From Shigella phage SSP1: 64,000 nucleotides of DNA. Position 1 is the first letter of the stretch; every line of letters begins with the position of its first letter. Shown here one piece after another: positions 43,628 to 63,474 of this stretch. The DNA lies in sequence record KY963424; one strand, 5' to 3'. Made by a program: the position numbers and the translations under genes. Below the pieces are notes generated by a model that worked only from the letters and a program-made list of their open reading frames with translations, was not told the origin of the DNA and ran no database searches.

Positions 43628-43650
43628 AGTAGCCCTTCGGGGCTATTATA
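43628..43650 (+). terminator. Intrinsic terminator after thyA
   Basis: AGCCC-TTCG-GGGCT hairpin followed by ATTATATTT. Confidence 0.6.
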
Positions 43651-43693
43651 TTTGAAATTGTACTTGCTTATTAAGTACAATTTCAAATATAAT
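43651..43693 (+). promoter_or_regulatory. Early promoter embedded in a 15-17 bp perfect inverted repeat (TTGCTT-18-TATAAT)
   Basis: TTTGAAATTGTACTTGCTTATTAAGTACAATTTCAAATATAAT; the two arms are exact reverse complements flanking the -35. Confidence 0.55.
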
Positions 43694-43722
43694 ATACTCA
43701 ATAAGTACAAAAGGATAATAAA

Positions 43723-44106
43723 ATGAGTAAAGAAATTGAATTAGAACAAGCCCTTCTGAATTACTCCAATTACTTGCAGGGTGATAAAGAAACTATTACT
43801 AAGGAACAGGTATTATTAATACTAGACTCTATCACTTCTAAATTCAGGACTTTAGAAGACTACTACTCTGTAGGCAATGGAGATGAGAAGGTAGAGTTAT
43901 GTCTAAATCTCCTAGAAGATATGGGTTGGGATGAGGAAGATCAAGTAGGGTATTTAGGTATATCTACAGAAATTCTAGAAAATACAGAGCATGAAAATAT
44001 ACTTGAAGTAAAGAGCAGAAGTGCTATTCGATATAATACTTATGGTACAGGTATTACAGGAATAAAAGCATTACTTAGTATAGACATAGGATGGTTAGAT
44101 GAGTAA
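43723..44106 (+). CDS. Hypothetical protein (127 aa)
   Basis: ORF with GGATAA RBS-like sequence. Confidence 0.5.
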   Translation: MSKEIELEQALLNYSNYLQGDKETITKEQVLLILDSITSKFRTLEDYYSVGNGDEKVELCLNLLEDMGWDEEDQVGYLGISTEILENTEHENILEVKSRSAIRYNTYGTGITGIKALLSIDIGWLDE

Positions 44107-60329: not shown

Positions 60330-60338
60330 CAATCAAAC

Positions 60339-60459
60339 ATTCTAGCGTGGTTGATGGAGAAACCAGCTTGGCGAGGGCAGAAGCTCGTTCGATTCGAGTG
60401 AAAGAATGGTTCTCGTAAGTCCGCACAAGTGATAACAGGTTCGAGTCCTGTCTAGAATG
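60339..60459 (+). ncRNA. 121-nt tRNA-like RNA (perfect acceptor stem + canonical T-arm, oversized body)
   Basis: 5' ATTCTAG pairs with 3' CTAGAAT; T-arm ACAGG-TTCGAGT-CCTGT; second internal T-arm-like hairpin GCTCG-TTCGATT-CGAGT; no CCA encoded. Confidence 0.4.
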
Positions 60460-60469
60460 ACACTATAAA

Positions 60470-60592
60470 GTTTACTTATTATGTAGGTTCCGATAGATCG
60501 GCGGGTCTATTCTGGCATTTAAGAGAGGTCTCGCAAACTTCTTTGTCAGCCGTGGGGTTCATAGCCTCCAGGTGGCCTACACAATAAGTAAA
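60470..60592 (+). ncRNA. Structured RNA candidate closed by 14-bp terminal stem
   Basis: ACTTATTATGTAGG (60474-60487) pairs with CCTACACAATAAGT (60576-60589) with one mismatch; internal palindromes; no ORF. Confidence 0.35.
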
Positions 60593-61225: not shown

Positions 61226-61304
61226 AGATCGCTAGCTCAATAGGTTTAGTAGCATCCGACTTTTAATCGGAAGGTTCTGGGTTCGAGTCCCAGGCGATCT
61301 ACCA
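61226..61304 (+). tRNA. tRNA-Lys(TTT)
   Basis: Acceptor AGATCGC/GCGATCT perfect, anticodon arm TCCGA-CTTTTAA-TCGGA, T-arm CTGGG-TTCGAGT-CCCAG, CCA encoded. Confidence 0.8.
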
Positions 61305-61323
61305 ATTTCAAGAAAAATGTACT

Positions 61324-61351
61324 TGCTTGATGCTTAATTTCTTGTTATAAT
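61324..61351 (+). promoter_or_regulatory. T5-type early promoter (TTGCTT-16-TATAAT)
   Basis: AAAAATGTACTTGCTTGATGCTTAATTTCTTGTTATAAT + ATATAAATTGATGGGGAG. Confidence 0.55.
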
Positions 61352-61589
61352 ATTTATATAAATTGATGGGGAGAAATCCTCATCATAGTTCACTAAGGTA
61401 TTAGCTCGACCTAGGACTGGCTGCCAAAAAGCACGATCCCTACGATTCGGGAGAAGTTCTAGATTAGTCCACTAGATTCAGTGGCAACTGAGTAGTGTAT
61501 CGGGTTTGCGAGATGACGCGGTTCCTTCCGCTTGAAGCGAAGGTGCTGTAGTTACGCCGAGCTAATAGCCTTAGTAAACTAAAGAATTT

Positions 61590-61663
61590 GGGGATATAGT
61601 TTAATGGTAGAACATCTGCTTTGCACGCAGAAGACGAGGGTTCAACTCCCTCTTTCTCCACCA
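61590..61663 (+). tRNA. tRNA-Ala(TGC)
   Basis: Acceptor GGGGATA/TTTCTCC (one mismatch), anticodon arm TCTGC-TTTGCAC-GCAGA, T-arm GAGGG-TTCAACT-CCCTC, CCA encoded. Confidence 0.7.
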
Positions 61664-61668
61664 AATTT

Positions 61669-61753
61669 GGGGCTATGCTGGAACTGGTAGACAATACGGC
61701 CTTAGATTCCGTAGCTTAAATGCGTGGGAGTTCGAGTCTCCCTAGCCCCACCA
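61669..61753 (+). tRNA. tRNA-Leu(TAG), type II
   Basis: Acceptor GGGGCTA/TAGCCCC perfect, D-loop with GGTAGAC, anticodon loop CTTAGAT, 13-nt variable arm, T-arm GGGAG-TTCGAGT-CTCCC, CCA encoded. Confidence 0.75.
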
Positions 61754-61865
61754 AATTTGATGGTCAGAGTAAAATAAACCTACTATCTCGGTTGAGCTGT
61801 TTTAATGGGTTCGAATCCCAGCGAGGCGTAACTGCCTGGTGTGATAGAGGCATCATCTTATTATT

Positions 61866-61956
61866 GGAAGAGCAAATCGAATTGGCGACGAAAACCGCTT
61901 GGAAAGTGGCTGACTGGTAAAACGGCTTGAGAGTTCAAATCTCTCCTCTTCCGCCA
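61866..61956 (+). tRNA. tRNA-Ser(GGA), type II
   Basis: Acceptor GGAAGAG/CTCTTCC perfect, anticodon loop TTGGAAA, long variable arm, T-arm GAGAG-TTCAAAT-CTCTC, CCA encoded; D region irregular. Confidence 0.6.
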
Positions 61957-61978
61957 AACAATTTATATGGTAGGTCAA

Positions 61979-62073
61979 TCCAACGGCTGGCGCTGGACTC
62001 CGACTTGAAATCGGTTGATCGTAGTGATACGGTGTAAGGGTTCGATCCCCTTACCTACCTCCAAATCTTGAAG
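61979..62073 (+). tRNA. tRNA-Ser(TGA), type II
   Basis: Acceptor GGTAGGT/ACCTACC perfect, anticodon arm CCGA-CTTGAAA-TCGG, long variable arm, T-arm AAGGG-TTCGATC-CCCTT, CCA encoded. Confidence 0.7.
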
Positions 62074-62439
62074 TATGCCGGAATCGGTAGACGGGGCTGC
62101 CTAAAAGGTTTATAGGGAACATCCACTCCCTGCAATATACCTCATAAAGCGGCTGAGATAAATGGTCTATCTCGTGAAGGTTCAAGTCCTTCTACTTCTT
62201 GATATATCAATGGCTCAAAGTGTAACGGTGCTATTTGATGCGCTTGGAAAGACTTCCCCGACATGCGTTCGGGAGTAAGCTACTAAGGCTAGAGTAGAAG
62301 AGTTTCGGAGAGCCGCCACAATTGAAAATTCGTACTCGTCTTGAGCTGCGTGCAATAGGAGATAACTTGATTAGTATTCTAGAACATGCTAATTGAGGAA
62401 GGTTTCGCTAACCCTGCGAGTTTTCAATTGTGGCTATAT
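62074..62439 (+). ncRNA. ORF-less segment with degenerate tRNA-like pieces and a 14-bp long-range stem
   Basis: T-arm GAAGG-TTCAAGT-CCTTC without matching acceptor; ...GAGAGCC-G-CCA 3'-end-like motif at 62308-62318; GCCACAATTGAAAA (62314-62327) is the exact reverse complement of TTTTCAATTGTGGC (62431-62444). Confidence 0.3.
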
Positions 62440-62516
62440 CATAATTGGTTAATGATCCTGATTGTGAATCAGGCCTATGTGGATTCGAATTCCACTAGCC
62501 ACCCCAAATTAACTTA
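62440..62516 (+). tRNA. tRNA-His(GTG)
   Basis: Acceptor GTGGCTA/TAGCCAC perfect, D-stem TCAT/ATGA, anticodon arm CCTGA-TTGTGAA-TCAGG, T-arm GTGGA-TTCGAAT-TCCAC, CCA encoded. Confidence 0.8.
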
Positions 62517-62531
62517 AATAGGAAATAAAAT

Positions 62532-62913: not shown

Positions 62914-63474
62914 ATGAAAATAATTCCTGAATTTCCAAACTATAGTATAACTGAGGATGGTAAGGTATGGTCTAAAAATATTAATGCATTTTTATCTCCA
63001 TATGTTAATAACTCAGGATACCCATGCTATAAACTCCACAAGAATGGTATTCAGTACACACAGTCTATCCATAGATTACTTGCTAGAGTGTATAAGGGTT
63101 TACCTTCACTAGACTCTGAACTAGAGGTAGATCATAAAGATACCGATCCTTCTAATTATAGTTTAGATAATATACAAGTTCTAAGTAAAGAAGAACACTT
63201 GAAGAAAACCCTTCAAGATAGGAAACAGTTGCCTTATAATACTATTTGCCCACTTTGCTCAGGCTACAAAGATCCTGGTGCTTCTAAGTGTAAGAAATGT
63301 TCTTCTTTATCACAAGTAAAAGATAAATCTGTTACCGTAGAACAGATCGAATACTGGGTTAAAAACTATTCTTGGGTAAGAGCTGGAAAGGAATTAGGTT
63401 ATTCAGATAGTGGATTACGTAAACGTTATAAAGCTCTTACTGGTAAAGACCCTAAACAAATAAAATGCGGTTAG
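62914..63474 (+). CDS. HNH homing endonuclease (NUMOD4-like N-terminus + HNH)
   Basis: EFPNYSITEDGKVWS; IHRLLARVY...EVDHKDTDPSNYSLDNIQVLSKEEHLKKT; paralog of 59196..59777; stop overlaps tRNA-Gly. Confidence 0.7.
   Translation: MKIIPEFPNYSITEDGKVWSKNINAFLSPYVNNSGYPCYKLHKNGIQYTQSIHRLLARVYKGLPSLDSELEVDHKDTDPSNYSLDNIQVLSKEEHLKKTLQDRKQLPYNTICPLCSGYKDPGASKCKKCSSLSQVKDKSVTVEQIEYWVKNYSWVRAGKELGYSDSGLRKRYKALTGKDPKQIKCG

What the first reader, a model, noticed from the sequence alone, without database searches (positions are those of the whole stretch)
62074..62446. ORF-less 370 nt with fragmented tRNA-like motifs and a 14-bp helix that competes with the tRNA-His acceptor stem
The segment has a good T-arm (GAAGG-TTCAAGT-CCTTC, about 62180) with no partner acceptor, a tRNA 3'-end-like GAGAGCC-G-CCA at about 62308, and an exact 14-nt inverted repeat GCCACAATTGAAAA / TTTTCAATTGTGGC (62314..62327 and 62431..62444). 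The 3' arm of that repeat includes the first five nucleotides of the tRNA-His acceptor stem. The alternative pairing could regulate tRNA-His processing or mark remnants of tRNA gene rearrangement.
Basis: seen in the sequence. Interest (0 to 1): 0.5.

Follow-up and report, generated by a model that had tools for sequence, protein, structure and literature searches.

The report
T5 stable RNAs and tRNA-His helix
This stretch holds three small structured RNA genes already annotated in phage T5 (function unknown), and the inverted repeat is a conserved 20-base-pair RNA helix joining the end of one of them to the start of the histidine tRNA, most likely a cutting site for the host enzyme RNase III.

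Summary
The window is a T5-like phage (Demerecviridae). The interval is not debris. It holds orthologues of three RNAs annotated in the T5 reference record as "stable RNA with unknown functions". RNA1 (62067-62211) is a tRNA-shaped RNA with a 41-48-nt insert in its anticodon loop. RNAI (62212-62318) is 107 nt and ends in GCCA. RNAIII (62323-62428) is 106 nt and abuts tRNA-His.

The inverted repeat is real, but the second arm was mislocated by 10 nt. It is a 20-bp helix (62315-62334 / 62415-62434), not 14 bp. In about 50 related loci the interior between the arms occurs in at least 6 non-homologous forms. The helix is always present, stops at pair 20, and has 9 pairs with compensatory changes. 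Unrelated Vequintavirinae phages have the same design upstream of their tRNA-His.

The annotated RNAIII ends lie inside the helix with a 2-nt 3' overhang, so RNase III processing is my preferred mechanism. It is inferred, not shown. In folding models the helix fully out-competes the tRNA-His acceptor stem until it is cut.

All these tRNA-His genes have T, not G, at -1.

Verdict: known genes, unknown function, and an interesting conserved processing architecture.

The parts
62067..62211 (+). RNA1: tRNA-shaped stable RNA (orthologue of T5 rna1, 'tRNA-like stable RNA with unknown functions').
   Evidence: Mapped from AY543070. The cloverleaf was tested on 32 distinct sequences: 96.5% of cells paired against 42-52% in slid controls, and 12 pairs with changes on both sides. 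ARAGORN with its intron option calls 62069-62200 a tRNA with a 41-nt insert at 37/38. No Rfam tRNA hit.
62070..62075 (+). RNA1 acceptor-like stem, 5' strand; pairs with 62193-62198.
   Evidence: 5 of 6 pairs show compensatory changes.
62193..62198 (+). RNA1 acceptor-like stem, 3' strand. It is followed by a U and a 13-nt tail with no encoded CCA.
62101..62148 (+). RNA1 insert replacing the anticodon loop. It is closed by the 5-bp stem 62096-62100 / 62149-62153, contains a hairpin at 62113-62118 / 62127-62132, and has a nearly invariant apical loop AACAUCCAC (62118-62126; one of its nine positions is G instead of A in T5).
   Evidence: the closing stem has 2 and the hairpin 3 pairs with compensatory changes, and the loop is invariant except one position among 32 sequences.
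62176..62192 (+).
62212..62318 (+). RNAI: 107-nt stable RNA (orthologue of T5 rnaI). Rod-like fold with terminal stem 62212-62216 / 62310-62314 followed by G-CCA (62315-62318).
   Evidence: Three sequence types (107, 100 and 99 nt) share both ends and a central hairpin. The consensus fold has 6 pairs with compensatory changes.
62315..62334 (+). 5' arm of the 20-bp helix. It begins at the RNAI discriminator G and includes its CCA.
62323..62428 (+). RNAIII: 106-nt stable hairpin RNA (orthologue of T5 rnaIII). Inner 12-bp hairpin at 62366-62377 / 62386-62397.
   Evidence: Fold z = -3.4, or -4.6 with flanks. Mean identity 99.0% among 26 distinct T5-type loci.
62415..62434 (+). 3' arm of the 20-bp helix. 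It ends with U-1 (62429) and G1-C5 of tRNA-His (62430-62434).
62429..62506 (+). tRNA-His(GUG). G1 is at 62430, position -1 is T at 62429, the discriminator is C73, and CCA is encoded.
   Evidence: T5 annotates 78 nt including U-1. The gene is 99% or more identical in 364 phage records.

Best explanation
The interval is part of a polycistronic tRNA transcript of a T5-like phage. In order it encodes tRNA-Ser, RNA1, RNAI, a 4-nt linker, RNAIII and tRNA-His.

- RNA1 is a tRNA-shaped RNA of class II type (long variable arm). Its anticodon loop is replaced by a structured insert of 41-48 nt, so it cannot decode.
- RNAI is a rod-shaped RNA with a tRNA-like end, a 5-bp stem followed by GCCA.
- RNAIII is a hairpin RNA.

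The inverted repeat is the basal helix of the RNAIII module. It is exactly 20 bp and runs from the discriminator G of RNAI (62315) paired with C5 of tRNA-His (62434) inward to 62334:62415.

Proposed mechanism. Steps 1 and 4 rest on computed folds. Steps 2 and 3 are inferred.
1. The helix forms as the RNA is transcribed. It sequesters the RNAI 3' end and the first five nucleotides of tRNA-His, which prevents the tRNA acceptor stem from forming.
2. Host RNase III makes a staggered cut in the helix, at 62322|62323 and 62428|62429. This releases RNAIII with a 12-bp stem and a 2-nt 3' overhang.
3. RNAI keeps a 4-nt trailer that exonucleases trim back to CCA. tRNA-His begins at U-1 with a 5' phosphate.
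4. The remaining 6-bp outer duplex falls apart and the tRNA-His cloverleaf folds.

The identity of the three RNAs is essentially certain. The RNase III step is my preferred but unproven mechanism. What RNA1, RNAI and the RNAIII interior do after release remains unknown.
For: Identity:
- The window is 92-98% identical to T5-like phages.
- AY543070 annotates rna1 (144 nt), rnaI (107 nt) and rnaIII (106 nt) immediately upstream of tRNA-His. These align base for base with the window. AJ604531 and DT57C carry the same annotation.

The helix is under selection:
- All of about 50 loci with this tRNA-His have it. This includes loci retrieved with patterns confined to the tRNA-His gene itself, which leave the upstream spacer free.
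- The interior occurs as at least 6 forms of 33, 68, 111, 126, 138 and 148 nt.
- Pairs 1-20 are essentially always formed, while pairs 21-24 are mostly unpaired.
- 9 pairs have changes on both sides. The covariation score is 0.367 against 0.162 in shuffles (0 of 500 shuffles reach it). Slid controls are 33-45% paired.
- The G.U pairs exist only when the + strand is read as RNA.

RNase III signature:
- The annotated RNAIII ends give a 2-nt 3' overhang inside the helix.
- Two other T5 hairpin RNAs also have their annotated ends inside long helices: RNA2H with a 2-bp stagger and RNAIV with a 1-nt stagger in another 20-bp helix.
- Measured against the published in-vivo rules, a footprint of 11+2+11 positions and A-U preferred at D/D' (PMC6212723), the site has 11 of 11 inner positions paired. 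It has 7 outer helix positions plus 4 from the RNAI terminal stem if that stem stacks coaxially. D and D' are both A-U.

Competition with the tRNA:
- In the 295-nt precursor the helix pairs have probability about 1 and the acceptor pairs about 0.
- The fold with the acceptor stem forced is 9.5 kcal/mol worse.
- The excised tRNA folds as a cloverleaf.

Independent recurrence in Vequintavirinae:
- AV124 has a perfect 20-bp helix from the discriminator of tRNA-Gln to C5 of tRNA-His.
- KNP2, SPLA5a and EC152 have 17 bp over 19 positions, with compensatory changes and different interiors.
- All four have T at -1.

Precedent: E. coli RNase III takes part in maturation of phage T4 tRNAs (PMC4810235).
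Against: - The RNAIII, RNA2H and RNAIV ends come from database annotation. I could not reach the primary papers that say how they were determined. If they were predicted, the overhang argument is circular.
- No end-mapping or rnc-mutant data were available.
- The two pairs between the proposed cuts are A-U and U-A, whereas in-vivo sites usually include a G-C there. In the KNP2-type helix the equivalent positions are U.G and U.U.
- On the outer side the helix proper gives only the 6 pairs beyond the cut on the tRNA-His strand (7 positions counted from between the cuts). The full footprint needs coaxial stacking, which I assumed and did not show.
- The RNAIV stagger is 1 nt, not 2.
- L034 has a mismatch at pair 15, and L029 and L031 lose the outermost pair.
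- The T5-type interior is 98.8% conserved, far more than RNA1 or RNAI. A pure processing spacer does not explain that.
- T5 mutants deleted for the whole region are viable (PMC11464382).
Confidence: 0.55

Rival explanations
1. Passive spacer. The hairpin is only a thermodynamically stable by-product of RNase P and RNase E processing between RNAI and tRNA-His. The helix exists to keep neighbouring RNAs from misfolding into each other, or to protect the spacer from exonucleases. RNase III plays no part.
For: RNAIII's 3' end coincides with the tRNA-His 5' boundary, which RNase P could generate. RNAI has an RNase P-like minihelix end. The pairs between the proposed cuts lack the usual G-C. The region is dispensable in the laboratory.
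Against: It does not explain why the helix is held at exactly 20 bp across unrelated interiors and in two phage families. It does not explain why it must include the tRNA's own first five nucleotides, which blocks rather than helps tRNA folding. It does not explain why the 5' end of RNAIII lies 4 nt beyond the RNAI CCA at precisely the 2-nt-overhang position. A leader paired right up to -1 should hinder RNase P (my own knowledge).
Confidence: 0.17
2. Functional cassette. RNAIII, and perhaps RNA1 and RNAI, are trans-acting phage RNAs such as decoys or inhibitors of host defence or tRNA-targeting nucleases. The 20-bp helix is chiefly their protective or recognition stem, and the alternative interiors are specificity variants exchanged during an arms race. 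This can coexist with RNase III excision.
For: The interior is 98.8% conserved within the T5 type but replaced wholesale by at least 5 other forms. RNA1 has a nearly invariant apical loop, AACAUCCAC, and occurs alone in Klebsiella phages. The T5 tRNA region is known to hold anti-defence tRNAs, for example tRNA-Lys against PARIS and tRNA-Tyr against a retron (PMC10644984).
Against: There is no match to any Rfam family. There is no extended similarity or complementarity to 5,426 E. coli genomes. High conservation could reflect co-conversion with the nearly invariant tRNA-His next to homing-endonuclease genes. No phenotype is known.
Confidence: 0.2
3. One reading: the motifs are decaying fragments left by rearrangement of tRNA genes, and the repeat is coincidental.
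For: RNA1 is plainly tRNA-derived in shape. The cluster is rearranged between phages by insertions of HNH endonuclease genes.
Against: All three RNAs are full-length, conserved and maintained by compensatory changes. They are annotated as stable RNAs in T5. No orthologue lacks the helix.
Confidence: 0.03
4. A DNA-level or transcription-level element: a cruciform or recombination site, a homing-endonuclease target, or an intrinsic terminator or attenuator upstream of tRNA-His.
For: The central CAATTG is palindromic. The consensus scan flags 62404-62420 plus TTTTCAATTG as terminator-like. Interiors are swapped between constant arms.
Against: The G.U pairs (positions 12, 15, 17, 19) would be A.C mismatches on the other strand. 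Terminator-like hits are at background level, 2 found against 1.6 expected, and the T-run is itself paired in the helix. A terminator there would abolish tRNA-His expression.
Confidence: 0.03

Closest known systems
Phage T5 stable RNA genes rna1, rnaI, rnaIII (GenBank AY543070; also AJ604531, BF23, DT57C)
   Same: Same order and position between tRNA-Ser1 and tRNA-His, and the same lengths (145 vs 144, 107 and 106 nt). Identity to T5 is 86%, 93% and 99%.
   Different: Nothing essential; these are orthologues. In this phage RNA1 follows tRNA-Ser directly, whereas T5 has a small ORF (T5.063) in between.
RNase III processing stems of bacterial rRNA operons, and RNase III action in the phage T4 tRNA cluster
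   Same: A long helix formed by sequences flanking or separating stable RNAs in one transcript, cut by RNase III to start maturation (PMC4810235; PMC6212723).
   Different: Here the helix is only 20 bp. It encloses a third stable RNA rather than the product itself. It uses the NCCA end of one RNA and the acceptor 5' strand of the next tRNA as its outer pairs. Cleavage has not been demonstrated.
Phage T4 stable RNAs C and D in its tRNA cluster (my own knowledge)
   Same: Small stable RNAs of unknown function, co-transcribed and co-processed with phage tRNAs.
   Different: No sequence relation was tested or expected. T4 has no tRNA-His.
Canonical bacterial tRNA-His maturation: gene-encoded G-1 retained by RNase P (PMC9976931; the RNase P detail is my own knowledge)
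   Same: A tRNA-His with C73 that needs an extra 5' nucleotide bearing a 5' phosphate for HisRS.
   Different: The phage genes have T at -1, which cannot pair with C73. They carry an upstream helix in which U-1 is paired with an A.
Intron-containing or disrupted tRNAs, and tRNA-like RNAs such as YrlA
   Same: RNA1 keeps the acceptor, D, variable and T arms, with an insertion at the 37/38 position.
   Different: The insert is 41-48 nt, too short for a group I intron, with no Intron_gpI or YrlA hit in Rfam. The loop flank is not conserved, no CCA is encoded, and T5 annotates the unspliced 144-nt form as the stable species.

Membership tests
T5 rna1 / rnaI / rnaIII stable RNA genes | Sequence orthology and synteny with the features annotated in AY543070. 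| tested here: met
   86%, 93% and 99% identity, the same order upstream of an identical tRNA-His.
T5 rna1 / rnaI / rnaIII stable RNA genes | Accumulation as discrete stable RNAs in infected cells. | not testable with these tools
   Rests on the depositors' annotation ('stable RNA').
tRNA (Rfam RF00005), for RNA1 | Score at or above the gathering threshold (29 bits). | tested here: not met
   No hit on 62067-62211 even at E up to 10.
tRNA (Rfam RF00005), for RNA1 | Acceptor, D and T arms in cloverleaf arrangement. | tested here: met
tRNA (Rfam RF00005), for RNA1 | 7-nt anticodon loop with U33, and a 3' NCCA end. | tested here: not met
   The loop is replaced by a 48-nt structured insert. The U33-equivalent varies (G in T5). 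No CCA follows the acceptor stem.
E. coli RNase III substrate | About 20-22 bp of (quasi-)continuous duplex around the site. | tested here: met
   20 bp, conserved in length. A 25-bp stack results if the RNAI terminal stem stacks on it (the stacking is assumed).
E. coli RNase III substrate | Product ends with a 2-nt 3' overhang. | tested here: inconclusive
   Met for the annotated ends of RNAIII and RNA2H, and 1 nt for RNAIV. However, the ends come from annotation, not from data I could inspect.
E. coli RNase III substrate | Base-pair preferences: A-U at D/D', and usually a G-C between the cuts. | tested here: inconclusive
   D and D' are A-U (fits). A and A' are U-A and A-U (does not fit the usual preference).
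E. coli RNase III substrate | Cleavage that depends on rnc. | not testable with these tools
   Needs an experiment.
Intrinsic terminator | GC-rich hairpin followed by an unpaired U-tract, at a frequency above background. | tested here: not met
   2 hits against 1.6 expected. The T-run at 62421-62424 is part of the helix.
Group I intron / YrlA / other curated RNA families | Match to the Rfam covariance model. | tested here: not met
   only tRNA and weak tRNA-Sec hits (on the tRNA-Ser genes), and nothing on RNA1, RNAI, RNAIII or the variant interiors.

The most novel reading that the evidence does not exclude
In T5-like and rV5-like phages the extra 5' nucleotide that HisRS requires on tRNA-His is not a gene-encoded G-1 kept by RNase P. 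It is a U-1 whose 5' phosphate is created by RNase III. A 20-bp 'ruler' helix pairs the NCCA end of the upstream RNA with U-1 and G1-C5 of tRNA-His and places the cut exactly between -2 and -1. The same helix serves as a fixed socket for interchangeable structured RNA cassettes (the RNAIII variants), which have functions of their own, possibly in counter-defence.
Probability: 0.22. Interest if true: 0.65.

Novelty: already known. Interest (0 to 1): 0.4.

Why it matters
These RNAs have been annotated as "stable RNA with unknown functions" since T5 was sequenced. By my recollection they were first described in the 1980s.

- **Annotation.** Knowing that the interval is three real RNA genes matters for annotation. 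Many deposited T5-like genomes leave it blank or place spurious small CDSs over it.
- **Helix.** It is exactly 20 bp, preserved through at least six wholesale replacements of its interior and present in a second phage family. It always pairs an upstream NCCA end with the 5' end of a tRNA-His that has U instead of G at -1. This gives a concrete, testable hypothesis for what at least RNAIII's stem is for.
- **tRNA biology.** It raises a specific question: how a bacterial-type tRNA-His lacking an encoded G-1 gets a functional 5' end.
- **If the RNase III route is confirmed.** It would be an unusual way to generate a tRNA identity element.
- **If it is not confirmed.** The locus remains an ordinary, already catalogued part of the T5 tRNA cluster.

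Tried and rejected
1. Known RNA families. Rfam at gathering and permissive thresholds, on the window and on four variant loci, found nothing for RNA1, RNAI, RNAIII or the variant interiors.
2. RNAI as a decayed tRNA-Gln. The idea came from its AG-UGUAACGGU 5' part and from tRNA-Gln occupying the same place in Vequintavirinae. Global alignment scores against six tRNA-Gln sequences were no better than shuffles (z from -1.2 to +0.5), so I rejected it.
3. Protein-coding reading. Only ORFs of 46 aa or less are present, on both strands, and the substitution pattern is compensatory at the RNA level. Rejected.
4. Antisense or host mimicry. blastn of 62067-62428 against 5,426 E. coli genomes at E up to 10 gave no match.
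5. Promoter and terminator scan. Nothing above background.
6. Primary literature on how the T5 stable RNA ends were determined, or on RNase III in T5. It was not found in the searchable library. Two of these searches were poorly targeted and wasted.
7. IMG/VR and metagenome scans for more variants. These returned mostly the same isolates, 27 and 8 loci, and added only one or two new arm variants.
8. RNA1 as an intron-containing decoder. ARAGORN's nominal anticodon AAA is not credible, because the flank varies, the body has a class II shape, and no CCA is encoded.

Full report
**What the window is.** ARAGORN and Rfam find about 20 tRNA genes on the + strand between 51 kb and 64 kb. The stretch 61300-62520 is 92-98% identical to the tRNA region of T5-like phages (Demerecviridae; best match Salmonella phage Th1). 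The finding lies between two tRNA-Ser genes and tRNA-His(GUG) at 62430-62506. ARAGORN misses both tRNA-Ser genes (61866-61952 and 61969-62059; weak Rfam tRNA-Sec hits, annotated tRNA-Ser in relatives).

**Checking the observation.** All three motifs exist. The inverted repeat is exact over 14 nt, at 62315-62328 and 62421-62434. Such a repeat is expected 0.08 times per shuffled window.

The pairing continues to 20 bp (62315-62334 with 62415-62434, two G.U pairs) and closes a strongly structured 120-nt element. The fold z-score is -3.4, and -4.6 with flanks. No ORF above 46 aa is present.

The statement that the T-arm has no acceptor is wrong, as shown below.

**What it is.** The T5 reference record AY543070 annotates three misc_RNAs directly upstream of tRNA-His. 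They are rnaIII (106 nt, abutting the tRNA), rnaI (107 nt) and rna1 (144 nt, "tRNA-like"), all "stable RNA with unknown functions". Aligning T5 to the window maps them to these coordinates:

| RNA | Window coordinates |
|---|---|
| RNA1 | 62067-62211 |
| RNAI | 62212-62318 |
| RNAIII | 62323-62428 |
| tRNA-His (including U-1) | 62429-62506 |

The records for Salmonella phage 5 and DT57C carry the same annotation. BLAST hits break the interval into exactly these modules. Some phages have RNA1 and RNAI without T5-type RNAIII, one lacks RNA1, and Klebsiella phages have RNA1 alone.

**RNA1.** I aligned 32 distinct copies of three or four sequence types. I then tested a cloverleaf with these elements:
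- a 6-bp acceptor stem;
- a 3-bp D stem;
- a 5-bp "anticodon" stem closing a 48-nt insert with its own hairpin;
- a 6-bp variable arm;
- the T arm.

96.5% of cells pair, against 42-52% when partners are slid. Twelve pairs change on both sides, and 0 of 500 shuffles reach that. Five of the six acceptor pairs covary, and RNAalifold agrees.

The flank of the loop varies (the U33 equivalent is G in T5), no CCA is encoded, and Rfam's tRNA model does not hit it. It is therefore tRNA-shaped but not a decoder. The apical loop AACAUCCAC varies at only one of its nine positions (G for A in T5).

**RNAI.** Three types (107, 100 and 99 nt) share the 5' end GGCUCAAAGWGUAACGGUGC, a central hairpin, and the 3' end GAGUUUCKGAGAGCC-G-CCA. 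The consensus fold is a rod with a 5-bp terminal stem plus NCCA, and six pairs show compensatory changes. It is not detectably related to tRNA-Gln.

**The helix.** Every locus I could obtain with this tRNA-His has an RNAI-type 3' end upstream and the two arms. This covers about 50 loci, and includes scans whose pattern lay entirely within the tRNA-His gene and so left the upstream spacer free.

The sequence between the arms comes in at least six forms of 33, 68, 111, 126, 138 and 148 nt, most of them unalignable with one another. In each form the invariant outer part, GCCACAAUUGA / UCAAUUGUGGC, is continued by form-specific complementary bases.

On ten distinct arm pairs:
- pairs 1-20 are essentially always formed;
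- pairs 21-24 are mostly unpaired (2/9, 0/9, 1/9, 4/9);
- nine pairs have changes on both sides;
- the covariation score is 0.367 against 0.162 in shuffles (0 of 500 reach it);
- slid controls are 33-45% paired.

One phage has a double change inside the "invariant" part (G-C to A-U at pair 10). Another has UCA instead of CCA at the RNAI end and still pairs through U.G. The frequent G.U pairs exist only on the + strand read as RNA, which argues against a DNA cruciform.

**A second family.** I looked at other phage tRNA-His genes.
- Escherichia phage AV124 (Vequintavirinae) has T at -1. It has a perfect 20-bp helix from the discriminator G of the upstream tRNA-Gln to C5 of tRNA-His, with a different sequence from pair 5 inward.
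- KNP2, SPLA5a and EC152 have 17 bp over 19 positions, with compensatory changes and different interiors. All have T at -1.
- Of the two other phage tRNA-His genes inspected, a jumbo Erwinia phage and phiEa21-4, neither has such a helix. The jumbo phage clearly encodes G at -1; I did not resolve the phiEa21-4 acceptor stem and read its -1 as G only tentatively.

The sample is small, but the design [quoted passage not shown] is clearly not a T5 accident.

**Mechanism.** The annotated RNAIII ends fall inside the helix. The 5' end, 62323, pairs with 62426, which leaves 62427-62428 as a 2-nt 3' overhang. The outer product also has a 2-nt 3' overhang. That is the RNase III signature (PMC6212723).

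T5's two other hairpin-type stable RNAs behave alike:
- RNA2H (window 61399-61570) has a 2-bp stagger in a long helix.
- RNAIV (60481-60583) lies in another 20-bp helix, with a 1-nt stagger.

Against the published footprint of 11+2+11 positions, the site has all 11 inner positions paired. It has 7 outer helix positions, plus 4 more if the RNAI terminal stem stacks coaxially. The preferred A-U is present at both D and D'. However, the two pairs between the cuts are U-A and A-U rather than the usual G-C.

In a nearest-neighbour model of the RNAI-RNAIII-tRNA-His precursor, the helix has probability about 1 and the acceptor stem about 0. The fold with the acceptor stem forced is 9.5 kcal/mol worse, and the excised tRNA folds correctly.

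RNase III is known to act in phage T4 tRNA maturation (PMC4810235).

I therefore propose that RNase III cuts the helix. That would free the RNAI 3' end, release RNAIII and allow tRNA-His to fold. The steps from "helix" to "RNase III cut" are inference. I could not see how the annotated ends were determined.

**What stays unexplained.** Among 26 distinct T5-type loci, mean pairwise identities are:

| RNA | Mean pairwise identity |
|---|---|
| RNA1 | 91.9% |
| RNAI | 93.8% |
| RNAIII | 99.0% (interior 98.8%) |
| tRNA-His | 99.6% |

So the interior is either constrained for a function of its own or co-converted with the tRNA. No Rfam family and no host complementarity gives a clue. T5 mutants deleted for the region are viable (PMC11464382).

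The T at -1 is notable. Bacterial His identity rests on G-1 and C73, G-1 is normally encoded in the gene, and its role is to position the 5' phosphate (PMC9976931). An RNase III cut at -2|-1 would supply a 5'-phosphorylated U-1. This is the most novel reading that the data allow.

**Verdict.** The "debris" reading is wrong. Novelty of the feature: already known. Interest is moderate, because of the conserved 20-bp ruler helix, its exchangeable interiors, and the link to a U-1 tRNA-His.

Noticed in passing
window 62429 (and L052, L055-L057): The phage tRNA-His genes have T, not G, at position -1, with C73. T5 annotates the tRNA as 78 nt including U-1. Bacterial tRNA-His normally has a gene-encoded G-1, a major HisRS determinant.
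   Followed up: partly
window 61399-61570 and 60481-60583: Orthologues of T5 RNA2H and RNAIV. Both lie within long closing helices (about 17 bp plus 5 bp, and 20 bp with one A.C mismatch). Their annotated ends give 2-bp and 1-nt 3' staggers, like RNAIII. tRNA-like RNA2 (60338-60462) precedes RNAIV, which parallels RNA1 preceding RNAI and RNAIII.
   Followed up: partly
window 61866-61952 and 61969-62059: Two class II tRNA-Ser genes (GGA and UGA in T5) are missed by default ARAGORN and by the Rfam tRNA model. They appear only as sub-threshold tRNA-Sec hits.
   Followed up: partly
window 61754-61865: An unannotated 112 nt between tRNA-Leu(UAG) and tRNA-Ser2, containing a T-arm-like GGGTTCGAATCCC (61807-61819). 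T5 and phage bux have an HNH endonuclease gene (hegC / TflI) at this position. It is possibly a tRNA remnant or a deletion scar.
   Followed up: no
L002 (PV577657) 1173-1553 and other deposited T5-like genomes: Automatic annotation places small 'hypothetical protein' CDSs, often on the opposite strand, over RNA1, RNAI and RNAIII. Most records leave the RNAs unannotated. These CDSs are probably mis-annotations.
   Followed up: partly
L007 (Klebsiella phage vB_Kpn_K7_rec14) 892-1025: An RNA1 homologue with a fully compensated, different acceptor stem occurs alone, with no RNAI or tRNA-His after it. RNA1 is therefore an independent module.
   Followed up: partly
L039 (Enterobacter phage KKP_3711) ~790-800: RNAI ends in G-UCA instead of G-CCA but still pairs with GUGGC of tRNA-His through U.G. 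Pairing appears more conserved than the CCA itself.
   Followed up: no
window 62914-63474: A 186-aa ORF between tRNA-Gln(UUG) and tRNA-Gly. By eye it looks like an HNH homing endonuclease (motif ...EVDHKD...N...H). T5 has hegD (F-TflII) in this neighbourhood. It was not searched.
   Followed up: no
window 43644-43694: The only other exact inverted repeat of 14 nt or more in the window. It is a perfect hairpin of about 20 bp, ATATTTGAAATTGTACTT...AAGTACAATTTCAAATAT, just downstream of a terminator-like GC hairpin and about 30 nt upstream of an ATG at 43724. It may be an operator or another RNase III-type site.
   Followed up: no
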